DNA from: Ylistrum balloti
Lineage: Eukaryota
NCBI RefSeq assembly: GCF_031769215.1
Contig: NW_026782522.1
Coordinates: 1-64,000, forward strand
Direction: 5' to 3'
Length of the DNA: 64,000 nt
Of the stretch, positions 51,601 through 63,600 are shown piece after piece. Position 1 is the first letter of the stretch. Each line of letters opens with the position of its first letter. Made by a program: the position numbers.

Positions 51601-54600
51601 ATTTCTAGGGCTTTGGTTATGAAAAAGAATTTTACAGAATTACAGTAATGAATGACTTATTTTCAATTCTGCGATCGAACAGAATTCTTGCTAGTACACT
51701 TAATTACTCAATTACTTGTTATAATCTCAATATAAATTTAAGTGCTTAACGTACAGTTTAGTTCAGTGTTTAAACGAAAGTAGGACAATTATTGACGATG
51801 TCGACAAAAATAGCGGAAAATCGAAATTGTGCAGAAAAAATCAATTGATCTACAAATTTATCTATACATTTCATAAATCATATGTGTTGTTAGATTCAAT
51901 CCAAGTACTCATACAACTAAGTCTTGGTTAACTCCCGAGTTTAACCTTATGGAAGACGAAAGTTTTAGGGCTTTTCGCTTCAAACGGAAACCCTGCTTTA
52001 GGGGTTGTACATGGTATTCCAATATAGCATGTACACAACCAAACCACGATTTAACGAAATCACTCCAAATAAAAGCCACAAATTTCAACATCCAGACAAA
52101 ATGACAATTTTAAAACATCTAAAATAACTCACAATTTTGGCTATCCAGGATAAGTCACAATTATAAACACCAAGAATAAGTCTCAATTTTAAACTTCCAG
52201 AAGAAGTCAATATTCTACACATCCCGAATAAGTAACAATTATAAGCACCTGAAATAAGTCACAATTTTAAGCATCTGGAATAAGTCACAATTGTAAACAT
52301 CCAGAATATGATACAATCTTAAACATCCATAATAATAGTAAAATGAAAAGACCCACTGTAGCATTAAGTAATTATATTAACTAATAGCATTTTCGGCCCC
52401 TTGGTGAGGGTGAGGGGTTTGGTATGGTGGTGTTGATGATGGTTGGAAGAGGAGTGGTTGGTTGGATGATTACAACCAGCCCGAGTGAAATATTCCGATA
52501 TTCCTTAACACAAGGTTTGTCAATTTAACGGAATGAGTTGAGGGTAAAAAATGGCCAACGCTATATCAGTTAACATCTCGAATGAATGGAGTGTTCTATT
52601 TTCGTTGGTTTGCCTGATGGTTACGTTGTTGTTTACCTTGTTCACCTTTGTTACCTTCTTGGATTGACAAATATTTATATGACGGGTTTCGTCGATGAAA
52701 CAGAAGACATTTACTCTTCTGACACTCCACGTACTTTGCAAGAGTCTCTGTAATTGTTTTCCTATCTTGCCATATATTCATCAAAATTGTATTTGATTTT
52801 GTCAATATACCAGTATCTTTCTTTGTTCGTTGGTAGCATTACTGATTTTCCTTATCTGTTTCAGATACAAGTCTATACAGATGTCATGTGTGCCACCAAT
52901 ATTTCGAACGTACGTTCGATTTTGTGACCCATCTACAGACTCACGCAGGTTTTCTCTCGCCCAGTGACCTCCTGTTATGCTTTGTATGTGGAACCCAATG
53001 TGAGGATGCAAATGGACTGTTAACACATTTGGGAACACACGATGACAAAGAACCTCCGAGATGTTCCATATGCAGTGAACCATACAACCACTTCAGTCGG
53101 TTACATACGGGTCCTAAGCCATTTAAATGCAGCTTGTGTCTGCGGACTTTTCGGAGAAGCACTGAGTTTCACACTCATTTAACCATGCATTCAGGTGTTG
53201 ATCCTTACCAATGTGAGGTTTGCAACGTGGGTTTCAGTAGGAAAGACCGATTGCGAATACACAAAGAAACGATGCACAATATGACATTTGAGTTTTGTAA
53301 AATATGCAAAAGACATTATGAAAACGAGTCCTTTGAAGAACACAAAAAAAGTCATAACAGATTCATGTATGTGGAGTGCGATTTGTGTCACAAAACCTTC
53401 AACGTACTCAGTACTTTGGCGAGACACTGGGAGTATCATGTGAAAAATAGTTTCACATGTAATTTATGTGACCGTAAATTCAATGACTTCTCTCTCCTTA
53501 AATCACATGTGAAGACACACTTGTTGAAGCTATCACACTCCTGCACCTTCTGTCATCTCAAGTTTTACACCGCAAAGAACCTCTTACTTCACAAGAAAAG
53601 TCATTTTAAGAACGCACCAAATCAATTCGTCTGTAAAACATGCGGTGCTGACTATCCCACTGAAAGAAAATTACGTGAACATCAAATGAAATGGAACCAC
53701 GCGACATTTCAGTTCCACCAGTGTGGGAGGTGTCCCAAGCGGTTTCTCTCTGTCAGATCGCTCTACCGACATGAGAAATCCATGCACAGAGGTGAGCGTT
53801 GTTCATGTCAGTTGTGTGGGAAATGGTTTACTATCCCGGAAAACCTGACGTCTCATATGAGGAGTATACACCATAGCAAAGATTCCGTTCATCAATGCGG
53901 AATCTGTAACATCAGCTTTAGTAATGATAAAGAACTGAACGTTCATAACACAACAAAACATCCCACAGTGCCAAAAGAACGCGTGACTTTCCTATCTTCC
54001 ATAAGCAATGATAATTCAAAGGAGGCATCTGCATCGACAAGTCCGTTATCTGTTTATGAAACTCGGAACGTAAAGTACACACGTGATTCTACGTCTGTAC
54101 ATCTTGCTGTTAACAATGATCATATGAACGACGGAGCAGGAGAAAGAGGGGAAGTGGACCAGACCAGTAACCGCCCAGCTCGTTTTGTTTGTCGTTTTTG
54201 TGGGAAGTCATTTTCGGGACATCATTGGGGCATGCTACACAATAGGAAACACAAAGTGTCTGAAATTGTGAAAAGATGTGAAAAGTGTCGTAAAACGTTT
54301 GGACGACTCGAGCAATATACAAGACACCAGTGTGATGAGAGTAAGATAAATAGTTATGAGTGTGATATCTGTGACGAAGAGTTTGCGAGTTCGTTCATGT
54401 TGGCGCGTCATCAGGCAATACACAATGGACCGATGCTAAAATGTGAGAAGTGCGAAAGAATCTTTTCCAGAAAGGTTAACTTAAACAAACACATAGCAAA
54501 GGGTCACTCTTCAACACTGAAATTTAAGTGTTCTTTGTGTCCAAAACATTTCTTTAAAAAGGAACCATATTTACTCCATCTACAAACACACGTGAAAGAA

Positions 54601-60600: not shown

Positions 60601-63600
60601 AGCGAGAAACGCCTAAAATCACATGTGTGTATTCCCACAAATAATATATGACGTCCGCCACGACATAAGTGAAACAGGAAGGAAGCAGACGATTAACTGC
60701 TGTACCATGGAGTTCAACCGAATAGCGTCAATATAAATAAAAAACACTTGGATGTCTTATCTAAACAACTGTTTGTCAGCGAGAAAGTTTACAGGCTATG
60801 GGGGAAAATGGCCATTCAAATTATTTTAAGTATGTGTAAGCTGATGTTGGAAAATGCAAAGGAGAACGATTTTTTCCACCGATATTCGTATTAATAGAAA
60901 AGATAGTCAGTCAAATACTGTATAAGTGATATAGTATCAGTATGTAGTGTATGATCTACTGTATATATGATGTCTACAGTATGTAGTGTATGATCTACTG
61001 TATAAATGATGTCTACAGTATGTAGTGTATGATCTACTGTATAAATGATGTCTACAGTATGTAGTGTATGATCTACTGTATAAATGATGTCTACAGTATG
61101 TAGTGTATGATCTACTGTATAAATCATGTGTACAGTATCAGTATGTAGTGTATGATCTACTGTATAAATGATGTGTACAGTATGTAGTGTATGATCTACT
61201 GTATGAATGATGTCTACAGTATCAGTATAGTGTATTATCAACTGTATAAATGATGTCTACAGTATGTAGTGTATGATCTACAGTATAAATGATGTCTACA
61301 GTATGTAGTGTATGATCTACTGTATGAATGATGTCTACAGTATCAGTATAGTGTATTATCAACTGTATAAATGATGTCTACAGTATGTAGTGTATGATCT
61401 ACTGTATAAATGATGTCTACAGTATGTAGTGTATGATCTAGTGTATAAATGATGTCTACAGTATGTAGTGTATTATCTACTGTATAAATGATGTCTACAG
61501 TATGTAGTGTATGATCTACAGTATAAATGATGTCTACAGTATGTAGTGTATGATCTACTGTATAACTGATGTCTACATGTATGATCTTCTGTATAAATGA
61601 TGTCTACAGTATGTAGTGTATGATCTACTGTATAAATGATGTCTACAGTATGTAGTGTATGATCTACAGTATAAATGATCTACTGTATAAATGATGTCTA
61701 CAGTATGTAGTGTATGATCTACTGTATAAATGATGTCTACAGTATGTAGTGTATGATCTACTGTATGTCTACAGTATGTAGTGTATGATCTACTGTATAA
61801 ATGATGATGTCTATCTACTGTATAAATGATGTCTACAGTATGTAGTGTATGATCTACTGTATAAATGATGTCTACAGTATGTAGTGTATGATCTACTGTA
61901 TATATGATGTCTCTATGTAGTGTATGATCTACTGTATAAATGATGTGTACAGTATGTAGTGTATGATCTACAGTATGATGTCTACAGTATGTAGTGTATG
62001 ATCTACTGTATAAATGATGTCTACAGTATGTAGTGTATGATCTACTGTATAAATGATGTCTACAGTATGTAGTGTATGATCTACTGTATGAATGATGTCT
62101 ACAGTATGTAGTGTATGATCTACTGTATAAATGATGTCTACAGTATGTAGTGTATGATCTACTGTATAAATGATGTCTACAGTATGTAGTGTATGATCTA
62201 CTGTATAAATGATGTCTACAGTATGTAGTGTATGATCTACTGTATAAATGATGTCTACAGTATGTAGTGTATGATCTACTGTATAAATGATGTCTACAGT
62301 ATGTAGTGTATGATCTACTGTATAAATGATACAGTATGTCTATCTACTGTATAAATGATATGTATGTAGTGTATGATCTACTGTATAAATGATGTCTACA
62401 GTATGTAGTGTCTACTGTATAAATGATGTCTACAGTATGTAGTGTATGATCTACTGTATAAATGATGTCTACAGTATGTAGTGTATGATCTACTGTATAA
62501 ATGATGTCTACAGTATGTAGTGTATGATCTACTGTATAAATGATGTCTACATAACTGTATAAATGATGTCTACAGTATGTAGTGTATGATCTACTGTATA
62601 AATGATGTCTACAGTATGTAGTGTATGATCTACTGTATAAATGATGTCTACAGTATGTAGTGTATGATCTACTGTATAAATGATGTCTGATCTACTGTAT
62701 AAATGTATCAGTATGTAGTGTATGATCTACTGTATAAAATGATGTCTACAGTATGTAGTGATGTATAAATGATATCTACTGTATATATGATGTCTACAGT
62801 ATGTAGTGTATGATCTACTGTATAAATGATGTCTACAGTATGTAGTGTATGATCTACTGTATAAATGATGTCTACAGTATGTAGAGTATGATCTACAGTA
62901 TGAATGATGTCTACACTATGTAGTGTATGATCTACTGTATAAATTAGACAGTGAAATGTGTACAAGACTACATTGTAATGACAGTAAAATGTATGTTTAG
63001 ACAGTAAACGTGTGTACAAGCTATACATTGTAAACATGTATACAATGATGTCTACAGTATGTAGTGTATGATCTACTGTAAAACAGTACAAGATAATGAA
63101 ACAGTAAACGTATGCACATGTTACAAGCTACATTGTACGAAACTGTATAAGCTACATTGAGACAGTAAACGTGTGTACAAGCTACATTGAGACAGTAAAC
63201 GTGTGTACAAGCTACATTGAGACAGTAAACGTGTGTATAAGCTACATTTAGACAGTAAACGTGTGTACAAGCTACATTGAGACAGTAAACATGTGTATAA
63301 GCTACATTGAGACAGTAACCATGTTTACAAGCTACATTGAGAAAGTAAACATGTGTACAAGCTACATTGAGACAGTAACCATGTGTACAAGCTACATTGA
63401 GACCGTAAACGTGTGCACAAGCTACATTGAGACAGTAAACGTGTGTACAAGCTATATTGAGATAGTAACGTATGTACAAGCTACTACATTAAGACAGTAA
63501 ACATGTGTACAAGCTACATTGAGACAGTAACGTGTGTACAAGCTACTACGAAACAGTAAACATGTGTACAAGCTAAATTTAGACAGTGAACATGTGTACA

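What the first reader, a model, noticed from the sequence alone, without database searches (positions are those of the whole stretch)
52865..60651. Giant single-exon array of ~55-59 non-canonical C2H2 fingers with no effector domain
7.8 kb of intact ORF in a region otherwise full of decayed elements implies strong purifying selection. The fingers are mutually divergent, so this is not a recent tandem expansion. They form clusters of about 13, 10, scattered singles/pairs, then 4, 8, 6 and 4, separated by acidic Ser/Thr-rich spacers. Only ~6 linkers resemble TGEKP and several fingers are C2HC. I do not recognise an orthologue. Inference: a lineage-specific multivalent DNA/RNA/protein scaffold. 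One testable idea is that it recognises repeats or transposons, as large zinc-finger families do in other animals.
Basis: partly seen in the sequence, partly recalled or inferred. Interest (0 to 1): 0.65.

Follow-up and report, generated by a model that had tools for sequence, protein, structure and literature searches.

The report
Giant scallop-specific 58-zinc-finger protein gene
This is the large last exon of a real scallop gene that encodes a 2,657-residue protein made almost entirely of about 58 zinc fingers; it is conserved in finger order but fast-changing in sequence among scallops, has no characterised relative, and its function is still unknown.

Summary
Window 52865-60651 (+) is one open exon, with a splice acceptor at 52863-64 and a TGA stop at 60649-51. 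It encodes 52 canonical and 6 variant C2H2 fingers and no other Pfam domain.

The window is from the scallop Ylistrum balloti. The exon matches the NCBI model LOC132559480 (2,657 aa) at 100% identity.

Two corrections:
- The gene is not single-exon. A 179-nt coding exon lies at 46787-46965, and a probable ATG exon ends at 45154.
- Orthologues exist: Pecten maximus LOC117315488, Mizuhopecten yessoensis LOC110453822 and one unnamed transcript-like contig. All are about 2,570-2,810 aa, collinear and uncharacterised.

No collinear relative was found among 271 other large poly-zinc-finger proteins. These include proteins named ZNF236, ZNF1035, Xfin and ZNF423.

Among the four orthologues:
- Pairwise identity is only 39-47%.
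- Zinc ligands are 95.5% conserved, and 48 of 60 finger positions are shared by all four.
- Putative base-contact residues (40%) are no better kept than other surface residues (43%).
- No linker is TGEKP.

My reading is a scallop-restricted, fast-evolving, effector-less multivalent zinc-finger scaffold that probably binds nucleic acid through its basic tandem clusters. The transposon or repeat idea is untested. It is a new member of a known kind, of modest interest.

The parts
45147..45154 (+). Tentative end of the first coding exon: ATGGGAAG followed by gtaacg. It would supply Met-Gly plus two bases of the Ser codon.
   Evidence: This is the only match to ATGGGNAGGT in the window. The chance expectation is 0.37, and 32 of 100 shuffles have at least one match, so it is weak on its own. 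It is needed because the database protein starts MG before the exon 2 residues.
46787..46965 (+). Coding exon 2. It gives residues 3-62 plus one base of the protein: an acidic N-terminus of low complexity with no Pfam family.
   Evidence: tblastn of the N-terminus of P0002 is identical from 46785 up to G62. An AG acceptor lies at 46785-86 and a gtaagt donor at 46966. Pfam finds 0 families.
46966..52864 (+). Intron 2 (5.9 kb, phase 1). It holds three satellite arrays: 47279-48461, 49078-50864 and 52073-52335.
52865..60651 (+). Terminal coding exon. It gives residues 63-2657, all of the fingers, and the TGA stop.
   Evidence: It is 100% identical to P0002, LOC132559480 of Ylistrum balloti.
52882..53961 (+). 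Cluster A: canonical fingers 1-11, plus the conserved mini-finger (53062-53106, followed by the TGPKPFK linker) and a shortened finger (53296-53355).
   Evidence: The block CSEPYNHFSRLHTGPK is 92% conserved. Sequence matches to solved structures (ZNF568, Aart, EGR1) fall on fingers 3-4.
54190..55017 (+). Cluster B: canonical fingers 12-20 plus one variant with an H-x-C end (54277-54333). Fingers 13-20 carry net charge +19.
55018..55311 (+). The one strongly acidic spacer (protein 781-878, net charge -25).
55312..57879 (+). Dispersed zone: fingers 21-31 as singles or pairs, separated by spacers of 16-150 aa. It holds two variant fingers (57055-57111 and 57514-57579) and three conserved non-finger motifs: KVERLGIFDLL (55963-55995), SEKETQV (56110-56130) and FSGSVL (56578-56595).
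   Evidence: Fingers 28, 30 and 31 share a G-[IL]-R-[IL]-H helix, with 11-12 of 21 positions identical.
58027..58338 (+). Cluster C: fingers 32-35 (net charge +11).
58540..58602 (+). Finger 36. It lies in an insertion seen only in Ylistrum.
58786..59409 (+). Finger 37 (acidic helix, 67-81% conserved) and cluster D, fingers 38-43.
   Evidence: Cluster D matches ZNF568, ZBTB24, PRDM9 and ZBTB17.
59647..60198 (+). Finger 44 and cluster E, fingers 45-49. Finger 49 is the best-conserved finger: 77-86% identity, with recognition positions SSER in all four orthologues.
60316..60630 (+). Cluster F: fingers 50-52 (net charge +14) plus a C-terminal variant finger with an H-x-C end (60574-60630).
60736..60741 (+). 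AATAAA, a likely polyadenylation signal 85 nt after the stop.

Best explanation
**What is shown**
- The stretch is the 7.8-kb last exon of a gene with at least three exons in the scallop Ylistrum balloti.
- The gene encodes a 2,657-aa protein with 52 canonical and 6 variant C2H2 zinc fingers, a 62-aa acidic N-terminus, and spacers of low conservation. No other domain is recognisable.
- One-to-one, full-length, collinear orthologues exist in Pecten maximus, in Mizuhopecten yessoensis and on one unnamed contig. No collinear relative was found anywhere else.
- Selection keeps the zinc-binding scaffold and the order of the fingers, while the finger surfaces diverge quickly.

**What is inferred (about 0.45 likely)**
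- The protein is probably a nuclear multivalent adaptor.
- Its basic tandem clusters keep the canonical 6-8-residue spacing between fingers. They would bind nucleic acid, most probably DNA. A few fingers with conserved Arg/Asp recognition residues (#4 RDR, #20 RDL) would supply specificity.
- The isolated fingers, the acidic-helix fingers (#37, #49) and three short conserved motifs would hold protein partners.
- Because TGEKP linkers are absent and most contact residues turn over, I expect low-specificity or distributed binding rather than one long conserved DNA motif.

The confidence of 0.55 given for this explanation blends the two parts: about 0.95 for the shown part and about 0.45 for the inferred mechanism.
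For: **Gene and identity**
- The exon is 100% identical to P0002, LOC132559480 of Ylistrum balloti.
- Splice sites were read directly, and exon 2 was located by tblastn.

**Orthologues**
- An exhaustive phmmer search with the first 734 residues of the exon read 1.84 billion representatives. Only 4 of the 150 listed proteins, the query's own record included, match end to end. Their scores are 814-1,860 bits, and the next hit is a multi-stretch match of 629 bits.
- The profile search gave 4,440-4,740 bits for the family and 335 bits for the next protein.
- In the finger-order test, 3 of 274 proteins are collinear, with rho 0.85-0.97 and 43-48 of 52 fingers as ordered reciprocal best matches. The other 271 have rho between -0.50 and 0.34 and at most 8 ordered matches.
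- The test can detect deep orthology. Gar ZNF236 against hemichordate, echinoderm, spider, ant, tick and gastropod ZNF236-like proteins gives 12-21 of 30 ordered matches. Gar ZNF236 against the scallop protein gives 4.

**Constraint among the four orthologues**
- Ligands are 894/936 identical, core Phe/Leu 486/624, recognition positions 502/1,248 and other surface positions 1,480/3,432.
- 48 of 60 finger positions are present in all four orthologues.
- Mean conservation is 0.53 inside fingers and 0.27 outside.

**Likeness to DNA binders**
- Sequence matches to solved structures are all DNA-binding arrays: ZNF568, Aart, CTCF, ZBTB24, PRDM9 and EGR1.
- 26 of 30 short linkers are 6-8 residues long.
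- The tandem clusters carry net charges of +8 to +19.

**No effector domain**
-.

**Transcription in a relative**
- The contig of P0004 is 7,999 nt long. It carries one ORF of 2,569 codons that includes the homologue of exon 2. That fits a spliced transcript. This is an inference.
Against: **Against conventional DNA binding**
- 0 of 30 short linkers are TGEKP-like. [quoted passage not shown]
- Position -1 is Ser or Thr in 26 of 52 fingers, and position 6 is Leu, Val or Ile in 14 of 52.
- Only 5 of 52 fingers keep at least 3 of their 4 recognition positions in all four species. 26 of 52 keep none.
- 15 of 52 fingers are H-x4-H and 2 are H-x5-H (with finger 48 corrected).
- Several of the best-conserved fingers have acidic or neutral helices (#37, #49). 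That fits protein contacts better than DNA contacts.

**Limits of the evidence**
- No localisation, expression or binding data exist for any of the four proteins.
- The restriction to scallops rests on ranked lists: the top 150 of 103,174 hits, and the word-index searches. A much more diverged orthologue could lie below those lists.
- The word-index search missed the Mizuhopecten orthologue.
Confidence: 0.55

Rival explanations
1. It is a tracker of repeats, satellites or transposons. In this reading it is a single-copy invertebrate analogue of KRAB-ZFPs or fast-evolving ZAD-ZNFs, and its fingers co-evolve with rapidly changing repetitive DNA and help silence or package it.
For: - Divergence is fast within one family. 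Pairwise identity is 39-47%. The mean best-finger score is 54-69 between scallops, against 69-93 for ZNF236 between gar and invertebrate phyla.
- Recognition quadruplets turn over: 26 of 52 fingers have no invariant position.
- Fingers are gained and lost: 12 of 60 positions are not shared by all four orthologues.
- Contact positions are slightly less conserved than other surface positions (40.2% against 43.1%).
Against: - The difference between contact and other surface positions is not significant (p = 0.08), so all surfaces drift together.
- Finger order is strictly conserved and the gene looks single-copy. There is no birth-and-death pattern, and no paralogue turned up.
- No KRAB, ZAD or other repressor domain is present.
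- TGEKP linkers are absent.
- Satellites near the gene say nothing about its targets.
Confidence: 0.15
2. It is mainly an RNA-binding or protein-binding scaffold rather than a DNA binder. The fingers would serve as folded beads for RNA or partner proteins, as in TFIIIA fingers 4-6 or the protein-binding clusters of ZNF423/OAZ (both recalled).
For: - There are no TGEKP linkers.
- Many fingers are H-x4-H or H-x5-H.
- The zf-C2H2_jaz family (double-stranded RNA binding) scores 60 bits against a cut-off of 22.6.
- The best-conserved fingers have acidic helices.
- Short non-finger motifs are conserved.
- Passages of a review state that C2H2 fingers also bind RNA and proteins (PMC8084297).
Against: - Only 1 stretch passes for zf-C2H2_jaz on its own, and only 2 of 52 fingers have the H-x5-H spacing.
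- The tandem clusters are strongly basic and canonically spaced.
- Fingers #4 and #20 keep an Arg(-1)/Asp(2) pair. I recall that pair as typical of base contacts.
- The nearest solved sequences are DNA-bound arrays.
Confidence: 0.25
3. It is the scallop orthologue of a gene family that already has a name (ZNF236, ZNF1035, 'Xfin', ZNF423 or ZNF646), so it is neither lineage-specific nor new.
For: These names appear among the next-best hits, at 20-25% identity over up to 78% of the query.
Against: - The finger-order test fails for every one of them. ZNF236-named, ZNF1035-named, Xfin-named and ZNF423-named proteins have rho between -0.30 and 0.31 and at most 8 ordered matches.
- The same test recovers ZNF236 and ZNF1035 orthology within their own families.
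- The family motifs occur only in the four orthologues among the 276 fetched proteins.
- Xenopus XFIN has a KRAB-AB domain (PMC3912051, title and abstract in the listing). This protein has none.
Confidence: 0.04
4. It is an annotation artefact or an unexpressed relic: an open frame kept by chance or only recently inactivated.
For: I saw no expression data for Ylistrum. The NCBI model is a computer prediction.
Against: - There is 1 stop in 2,595 codons, against 102-272 in the other five frames.
- Full-length orthologues are intact in three further sources, and their ligands are 95.5% conserved.
- The unnamed contig looks like a spliced transcript.
Confidence: 0.01

Closest known systems
Uncharacterised scallop genes LOC117315488 (Pecten maximus) and LOC110453822 (Mizuhopecten yessoensis; UniRef auto-name 'Zinc finger protein 208')
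   Same: They are full-length collinear orthologues of 2,672 and 2,807 aa. 48 and 43 of the 52 fingers are ordered reciprocal best matches. They share the same mini-finger and the non-finger motifs SEPYNHF, GIFD[IL]L, SEKETQV and QSMSEK; FSGSVL is exact in Pecten maximus only. They also have no effector domain.
   Different: Identity to the window's protein is only 44-46%. Some fingers differ. Pecten has two fingers seen in no other orthologue (alignment columns 2585 and 2612). Ylistrum has lost one or two fingers and has one private finger. No paper in the searched library names any of the three LOC identifiers.
ZNF236 family (about 30 fingers, found across bilaterians)
   Same: It is also a large, effector-less protein with many C2H2 fingers in clusters. 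It appears among the next-best hits, at 21-25% identity over 13-41% of the query.
   Different: It is not collinear with the scallop protein (4 ordered matches, mean best-finger score 34.6). ZNF236 itself is recognisable from gar to gastropod and ant, with 12-21 ordered matches and scores of 69-93. ZNF236 is therefore slow-evolving and widespread, while the scallop protein is fast-evolving and restricted.
Fish ZNF1035 (about 42-47 fingers, 2,100-3,000 aa)
   Same: It has a similar size, finger number and low TGEKP content. For example, P0238 has 0 strict TGEKP linkers. It has no effector domain in the precomputed Pfam lists.
   Different: It is not collinear with the scallop protein (rho -0.19 to 0.21, at most 7 ordered matches). 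As far as I recall, it is also uncharacterised.
Xenopus XFIN and the KRAB-ZFPs
   Same: These are long arrays of C2H2 fingers. The KRAB-ZFP ZNF568 is the best sequence match among solved structures.
   Different: XFIN carries a KRAB-AB domain (PMC3912051, title and abstract in the listing). The scallop protein has no KRAB domain and no TGEKP linkers, and it shows no family expansion.
ZNF423/OAZ-type multifunctional zinc-finger proteins (properties recalled, not tested here)
   Same: The architecture is similar: separate finger clusters with non-canonical linkers. In ZNF423 these clusters divide DNA-binding and protein-binding roles. This is the model I use for how the scallop protein may work.
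   Different: It is not an orthologue. The Mytilus 'ZNF423-like' protein P0040 has rho -0.02, and the Anopheles ZNF423 homologues cover only 3-6% of the query.

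Membership tests
Classical C2H2 zinc finger (Pfam PF00096 / PF13894) | C-x2-4-C-x12-H-x3-5-H spacing with a conserved aromatic residue and Leu in the core, scoring above the Pfam cut-off | tested here: met
   PF13894 scores 340 bits against a cut-off of 27, and PF00096 scores 289 bits against 25.2. There are 52 canonical fingers. The core Phe/Leu positions are 78% conserved. 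In the low-confidence AlphaFold2 model, DSSP gives strand-strand-helix for the canonical fingers (mean pLDDT 59).
Polydactyl DNA-binding arrays with canonical linkers (Zif268, KRAB-ZFP or CTCF type) | TGEKP-like linkers between adjacent fingers | tested here: not met
   0 of 30 short linkers in Ylistrum match. The strict fraction is 0-3% in the four orthologues, against a median of 17% in 271 other large zinc-finger proteins. 43 of those 271 also have none.
Polydactyl DNA-binding arrays with canonical linkers (Zif268, KRAB-ZFP or CTCF type) | Canonical inter-finger spacing of about 7 residues from the last His to the next Cys | tested here: met
   16 of 30 short linkers have 7 residues, and 26 of 30 have 6-8.
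KRAB-ZFP | N-terminal KRAB domain (PF01352) | tested here: not met
   No KRAB match at E up to 0.1 in any of the 4 orthologues. Exon 2 alone gives 0 families.
ZAD-ZNF, BTB-ZF, SCAN-ZF and PRDM | A ZAD (PF07776), BTB, SCAN or SET domain beside the fingers | tested here: not met
   None of these is among the 19 families listed for the 4 orthologues at E up to 0.1.
ZNF236, ZNF1035, 'Xfin-like' and ZNF423 orthologue groups | Collinear finger-by-finger correspondence with members of the group | tested here: not met
   All 271 proteins outside the family have at most 8 ordered reciprocal matches. Positive controls within ZNF236 and ZNF1035 give 12-39.
JAZ / ZNF346-type double-stranded-RNA-binding fingers (PF12171) | C-x2-C-x12-H-x5-H fingers separated by long linkers (definition recalled) | tested here: inconclusive
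   The whole-protein score is 60 bits against a cut-off of 22.6, but only 1 stretch passes on its own. 2 of 52 fingers are H-x5-H.
Scallop giant zinc-finger orthologue group (defined here) | About 2,570-2,810 aa, collinear order of about 50 fingers, and the motifs SEPYNHF, GIFD[IL]L, SEKETQV and QSMSEK | tested here: met
   Among the 276 fetched proteins, the motifs occur only in P0002, P0003, P0060 and P0004, plus P0001, which is the window translation itself.

The most novel reading that the evidence does not exclude
This would be a single-copy, scallop-restricted, 58-finger protein that evolves fast because it tracks the rapidly changing satellite or transposon DNA of scallop genomes. That would make it an invertebrate heterochromatin or repeat-packaging factor that arose independently of KRAB- and ZAD-zinc-finger systems. 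It would work without a dedicated repressor domain, using many weak finger-DNA contacts and short conserved motifs (GIFDLL, SEKETQV) to recruit partners.
Probability: 0.12. Interest if true: 0.6.

Novelty: new member of a known kind. Interest (0 to 1): 0.3.

Why it matters
Very large, effector-less proteins with many C2H2 fingers are common in animal genomes and almost entirely uncharacterised. Among the 271 other large zinc-finger proteins fetched here, 43 also lack TGEKP linkers.

This scallop family is a clean case for study. It appears to be single-copy and has strict one-to-one orthologues. The zinc scaffold and the finger order are kept almost perfectly, while the surfaces diverge to about 40-47% identity within one animal family.

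That pattern raises a testable question: what kind of selection keeps about 50 fingers in order without keeping what they would read? The answer would help show whether such giants are DNA readers, repeat trackers or protein/RNA scaffolds.

For annotation, the finding is ordinary. The gene is already predicted in NCBI as an uncharacterised protein.

Tried and rejected
**Steps that led nowhere**
- The listing of cluster members for P0060, P0002 and P0003 was not sent because the database is switched off. The name of P0060 came instead.
- The ESM Atlas look-alike search on the dispersed zone (1,003 aa) returned only generic C2H2 clusters. Its recognition value was 1,698, below the 2,300 mark, and the Atlas holds no structure for this protein.
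- AlphaFold2 on cluster A with the 4-row alignment gave mean pLDDT 59 and pTM 0.28. The mini-finger and the shortened finger scored below 50. I ran no fold search, because a model of this confidence gives meaningless matches.
- Rfam found nothing in the whole window.
- The three LOC identifiers returned 0 papers. Searches on Ylistrum genomes and on C2H2 expansion in scallops listed nothing about this gene (listings only).
- Two scallop papers were searched for divergence dates (passages only). Neither gives a Pecten-Mizuhopecten-Ylistrum date in its text.

**Ideas considered and rejected**
- Recent tandem expansion.
- Orthology to ZNF236, ZNF1035, Xfin or ZNF423.
- A KRAB, ZAD, BTB, SCAN or SET effector.

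**Not done**
- I ran no complex prediction, because I make no binding claim about a specific partner.
- The genome-contig collection holds only bacteria and archaea, so I did not use it.
- Paper supplements were closed, so expression tables that might list these genes stayed unseen.

Full report
**1. Source and rules**

The window contains no N. The large open frame is 100% identical to 'uncharacterized protein LOC132559480 [Ylistrum balloti]' (P0002, 2,657 aa). Ylistrum balloti is a scallop of the family Pectinidae, so I take the contig for scallop, not human.

I did not build or search a joined translation of the window's exons. The large exon was searched alone and exon 2 alone. The full-length sequence used in alignments is the database record as returned.

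**2. The observation**

The reading frame is open from 52849 to 60648 and ends in TGA at 60649-60651. Over 52865-60651 the coding frame has only its terminal stop in 2,595 codons. The other five frames have 102-272 stops.

A pattern scan finds 52 non-overlapping canonical fingers. Six variant fingers are visible:
- a conserved mini-finger, CSICSEPYNHFSRLH, followed by TGPKPFK;
- a C-x2-C-x10-H finger;
- three fingers that end in H-x-C;
- one C-x2-C...C-x2-C unit.

The fingers are mutually divergent. Over 1,326 pairs the mean is 6.0 identical positions of 21, and only one pair reaches 12. The highest nucleotide identity between two fingers is 0.62. Tandem Repeats Finder reports no array inside the exon.

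- None of the 30 short linkers is TGEKP-like.
- Only one spacer is strongly acidic, with net charge -25.
- Two canonical-spaced fingers are C2HC. The script labelled finger 48 as C2HC, but it is H-x4-H, because the orthologues have His at that position.

**3. Gene structure**

The database protein has 62 more N-terminal residues than the exon encodes. tblastn places residues 3-62 at 46785-46964, with an AG acceptor at 46785-86 and a gtaagt donor at 46966. Exon 2 is therefore 46787-46965.

The first two residues (Met-Gly) need a further exon that ends in ATGGGNAG|GT. The only match in the window is at 45147-45156. This is weak evidence, since 0.37 matches are expected by chance.

Intron 2 is 5.9 kb long and holds three satellite arrays. 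AATAAA lies 85 nt after the stop.

So the finger array is single-exon but the gene is not. Exon 2 encodes an acidic stretch of low complexity with no Pfam family.

**4. Relatives**

The word-index search with the exon found the protein's own record, Pecten maximus LOC117315488 (P0003, 2,672 aa) and an unnamed contig protein (P0004, 2,569 aa). Both relatives cover 99% of the query.

An exhaustive phmmer search with the first 734 residues read 1.84 billion representatives. It added P0060 (2,807 aa). Only these four proteins match end to end, at 814-1,860 bits. Everything below them is a multi-stretch generic match of 629 bits or less. P0060 is Mizuhopecten yessoensis LOC110453822. A profile of the four sequences scores the family at 4,440-4,740 bits and the next protein at 335 bits. 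All three named species belong to the Pectinidae.

Any protein with many fingers matches any other, so I used a finger-order test. Each of the 52 fingers is matched to its best finger in the target, and I ask whether the reciprocal best matches are collinear.
- 3 of 274 proteins pass, with rho 0.85-0.97 and 43-48 ordered matches.
- The other 271 have rho between -0.50 and 0.34 and at most 8 ordered matches (one search was a first subset of 23).
- The proteins that fail include those named ZNF236, ZNF1035, Xfin, ZNF423, ZNF646, ZNF91 and ZNF208.
- The test can see deep orthology. Gar ZNF236 gives 12-21 ordered matches of 30 against hemichordate, echinoderm, spider, ant, tick and gastropod proteins, but 4 against the scallop protein. 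ZNF1035 proteins of different fishes give 22-39 of 44.

Family motifs (SEPYNHF, GIFD[IL]L, SEKETQV, QSMSEK) occur only in the four orthologues among the 276 fetched proteins.

The restriction has limits. 'Scallop-restricted' therefore means that no collinear relative was found in these lists.

**5. How it evolves**

| Measure among the four orthologues | Value |
|---|---|
| Pairwise identity | 39-47% |
| Zinc ligands identical | 894/936 (95.5%) |
| Core Phe/Leu identical | 486/624 (78%) |
| Recognition positions -1, 2, 3, 6 identical | 502/1,248 (40.2%) |
| Other surface positions identical | 1,480/3,432 (43.1%) |
| Contact against other surface positions (Fisher) | p = 0.08 |
| Mean conservation in fingers / outside fingers | 0.53 / 0.27 |
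| Canonical finger positions kept in all four | 48 of 60 |

Of the remaining 12 finger positions, 3 are kept in three species, 3 in two and 6 in one.

Only 5 of 52 fingers keep at least 3 of their 4 recognition positions in all species: #4 RDR, #20 RDL, #24 S.ER, #30 TRG and #49 SSER. 26 of 52 keep none.

The mean best-finger score between scallops (54-69) is lower than for ZNF236 between gar and invertebrate phyla (69-93). This family therefore evolves much faster than that pan-bilaterian one.

The scaffold and the finger order are under strong constraint. The finger surfaces are under moderate and roughly uniform constraint.

**6. What it may do**

Only C2H2-type Pfam families reach their cut-offs in all four orthologues. 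The Atlas search of the dispersed zone gives only generic zinc-finger clusters.

For nucleic-acid binding:
- The nearest solved sequences are DNA-bound arrays, namely ZNF568, Aart, CTCF, ZBTB24, PRDM9 and EGR1. They fall on fingers 3-4 and 38-43.
- 26 of 30 short linkers are 6-8 residues long.
- The tandem clusters carry net charges of +8 to +19.
- Two fingers keep an Arg(-1)/Asp(2) pair.

Against a conventional sequence reader:
- There are no TGEKP linkers. Passages of PMC8084297 call that linker characteristic of DNA-binding C2H2 proteins, and say that fingers also bind RNA and proteins.
- Ser or Thr occupies position -1 in 26 of 52 fingers, and an aliphatic residue occupies position 6 in 14 of 52.
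- 17 of 52 fingers have H-x4-H or H-x5-H spacing.
- Contact residues turn over.
- Some of the best-kept fingers have acidic helices.

Three short non-finger motifs are conserved: KVERLGIFDLL, SEKETQV and FSGSVL. They are candidates for partner binding.

My best reading, at about 0.45, is a nuclear multivalent adaptor. The basic tandem clusters would give distributed, low-specificity nucleic-acid binding. The isolated fingers and the short motifs would hold proteins.

The repeat-tracking idea is compatible with the fast divergence, but the uniform drift of all surfaces, the strict one-to-one orthology and the lack of a repressor domain do not favour it (0.15).

The AlphaFold2 model of cluster A is of low confidence (mean pLDDT 59). 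It shows strand-strand-helix units for the canonical fingers only, and I did not use it further.

**7. Comparison and novelty**

Giant zinc-finger proteins without TGEKP linkers are not rare. 43 of 271 fetched large zinc-finger proteins have none, and some have more fingers, up to 109.

The gene is already predicted in NCBI, but no paper in the searched library names any of the three LOC identifiers. Supplements could not be seen.

It is a new, uncharacterised, family-restricted member of a known kind. Interest is modest at 0.3. It would be higher if codon-level tests or chromatin profiling showed repeat tracking.

**8. Left open**
- Expression in Ylistrum.
- dN/dS, because no orthologue coding sequences were available.
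- A search of other mollusc genomes at the DNA level.
- Any binding assay.
- Whether the flanks hold decayed mobile elements, which I did not test.

Noticed in passing
window 39275-42754, 47279-48461, 49078-50864, 52073-52335, 60916-62944 and 63144-63999: The zinc-finger gene is embedded in satellite DNA. There are 22-bp and 30/60/228-bp arrays upstream, three arrays inside intron 2, and 39-bp (51 copies) and 30-bp arrays just 3' of the gene. The 30/60-bp array creates spurious ORFs of 640-748 aa on both strands. The C-rich 26/45-bp arrays give a GC skew of -0.58.
   Followed up: partly
window 43703-43726, 44062-44069, 46750-46757 and 46805-46812: The palindrome TGACGTCA (CRE-like; the name is recalled) occurs 6 times in the window against 1.0 expected, and 0 of 100 shuffles reach 6. 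Five of the six lie in the 3 kb around the putative exons 1-2 of the gene, including a twin site at 43703-43726. This may mark the promoter and an untranslated first exon further upstream.
   Followed up: partly
window 1-38000: Smaller tandem arrays lie at 5507-5925, 9102-9424, 26311-26511, 28739-28939 and 30896-31213. No stop-to-stop ORF of 120 aa or more looks like a gene. Rfam finds nothing in the whole window.
   Followed up: no
Proteins P0079, P0212 and P0062, fetched: Some animal proteins have far more canonical fingers than this one: 109, 79 and 77 by the same pattern. 43 of 271 large zinc-finger proteins have no strict TGEKP linker. This points to a broad, little-studied class of giant zinc-finger proteins with non-canonical linkers.
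   Followed up: partly
window 57136-57879 (fingers 28, 30 and 31) and 59647-59709 (finger 44): Several isolated fingers share a C-[LK]-[IMV]-C-x-[RK]-x-[FC]-x-[ST]-x-x-G-[IL]-[RK]-x-H helix pattern, with 11-12 of 21 positions identical. They look like an old internal duplication of a 'finger plus long spacer' module. A further copy is intact in the other three orthologues but deleted in Ylistrum.
   Followed up: partly
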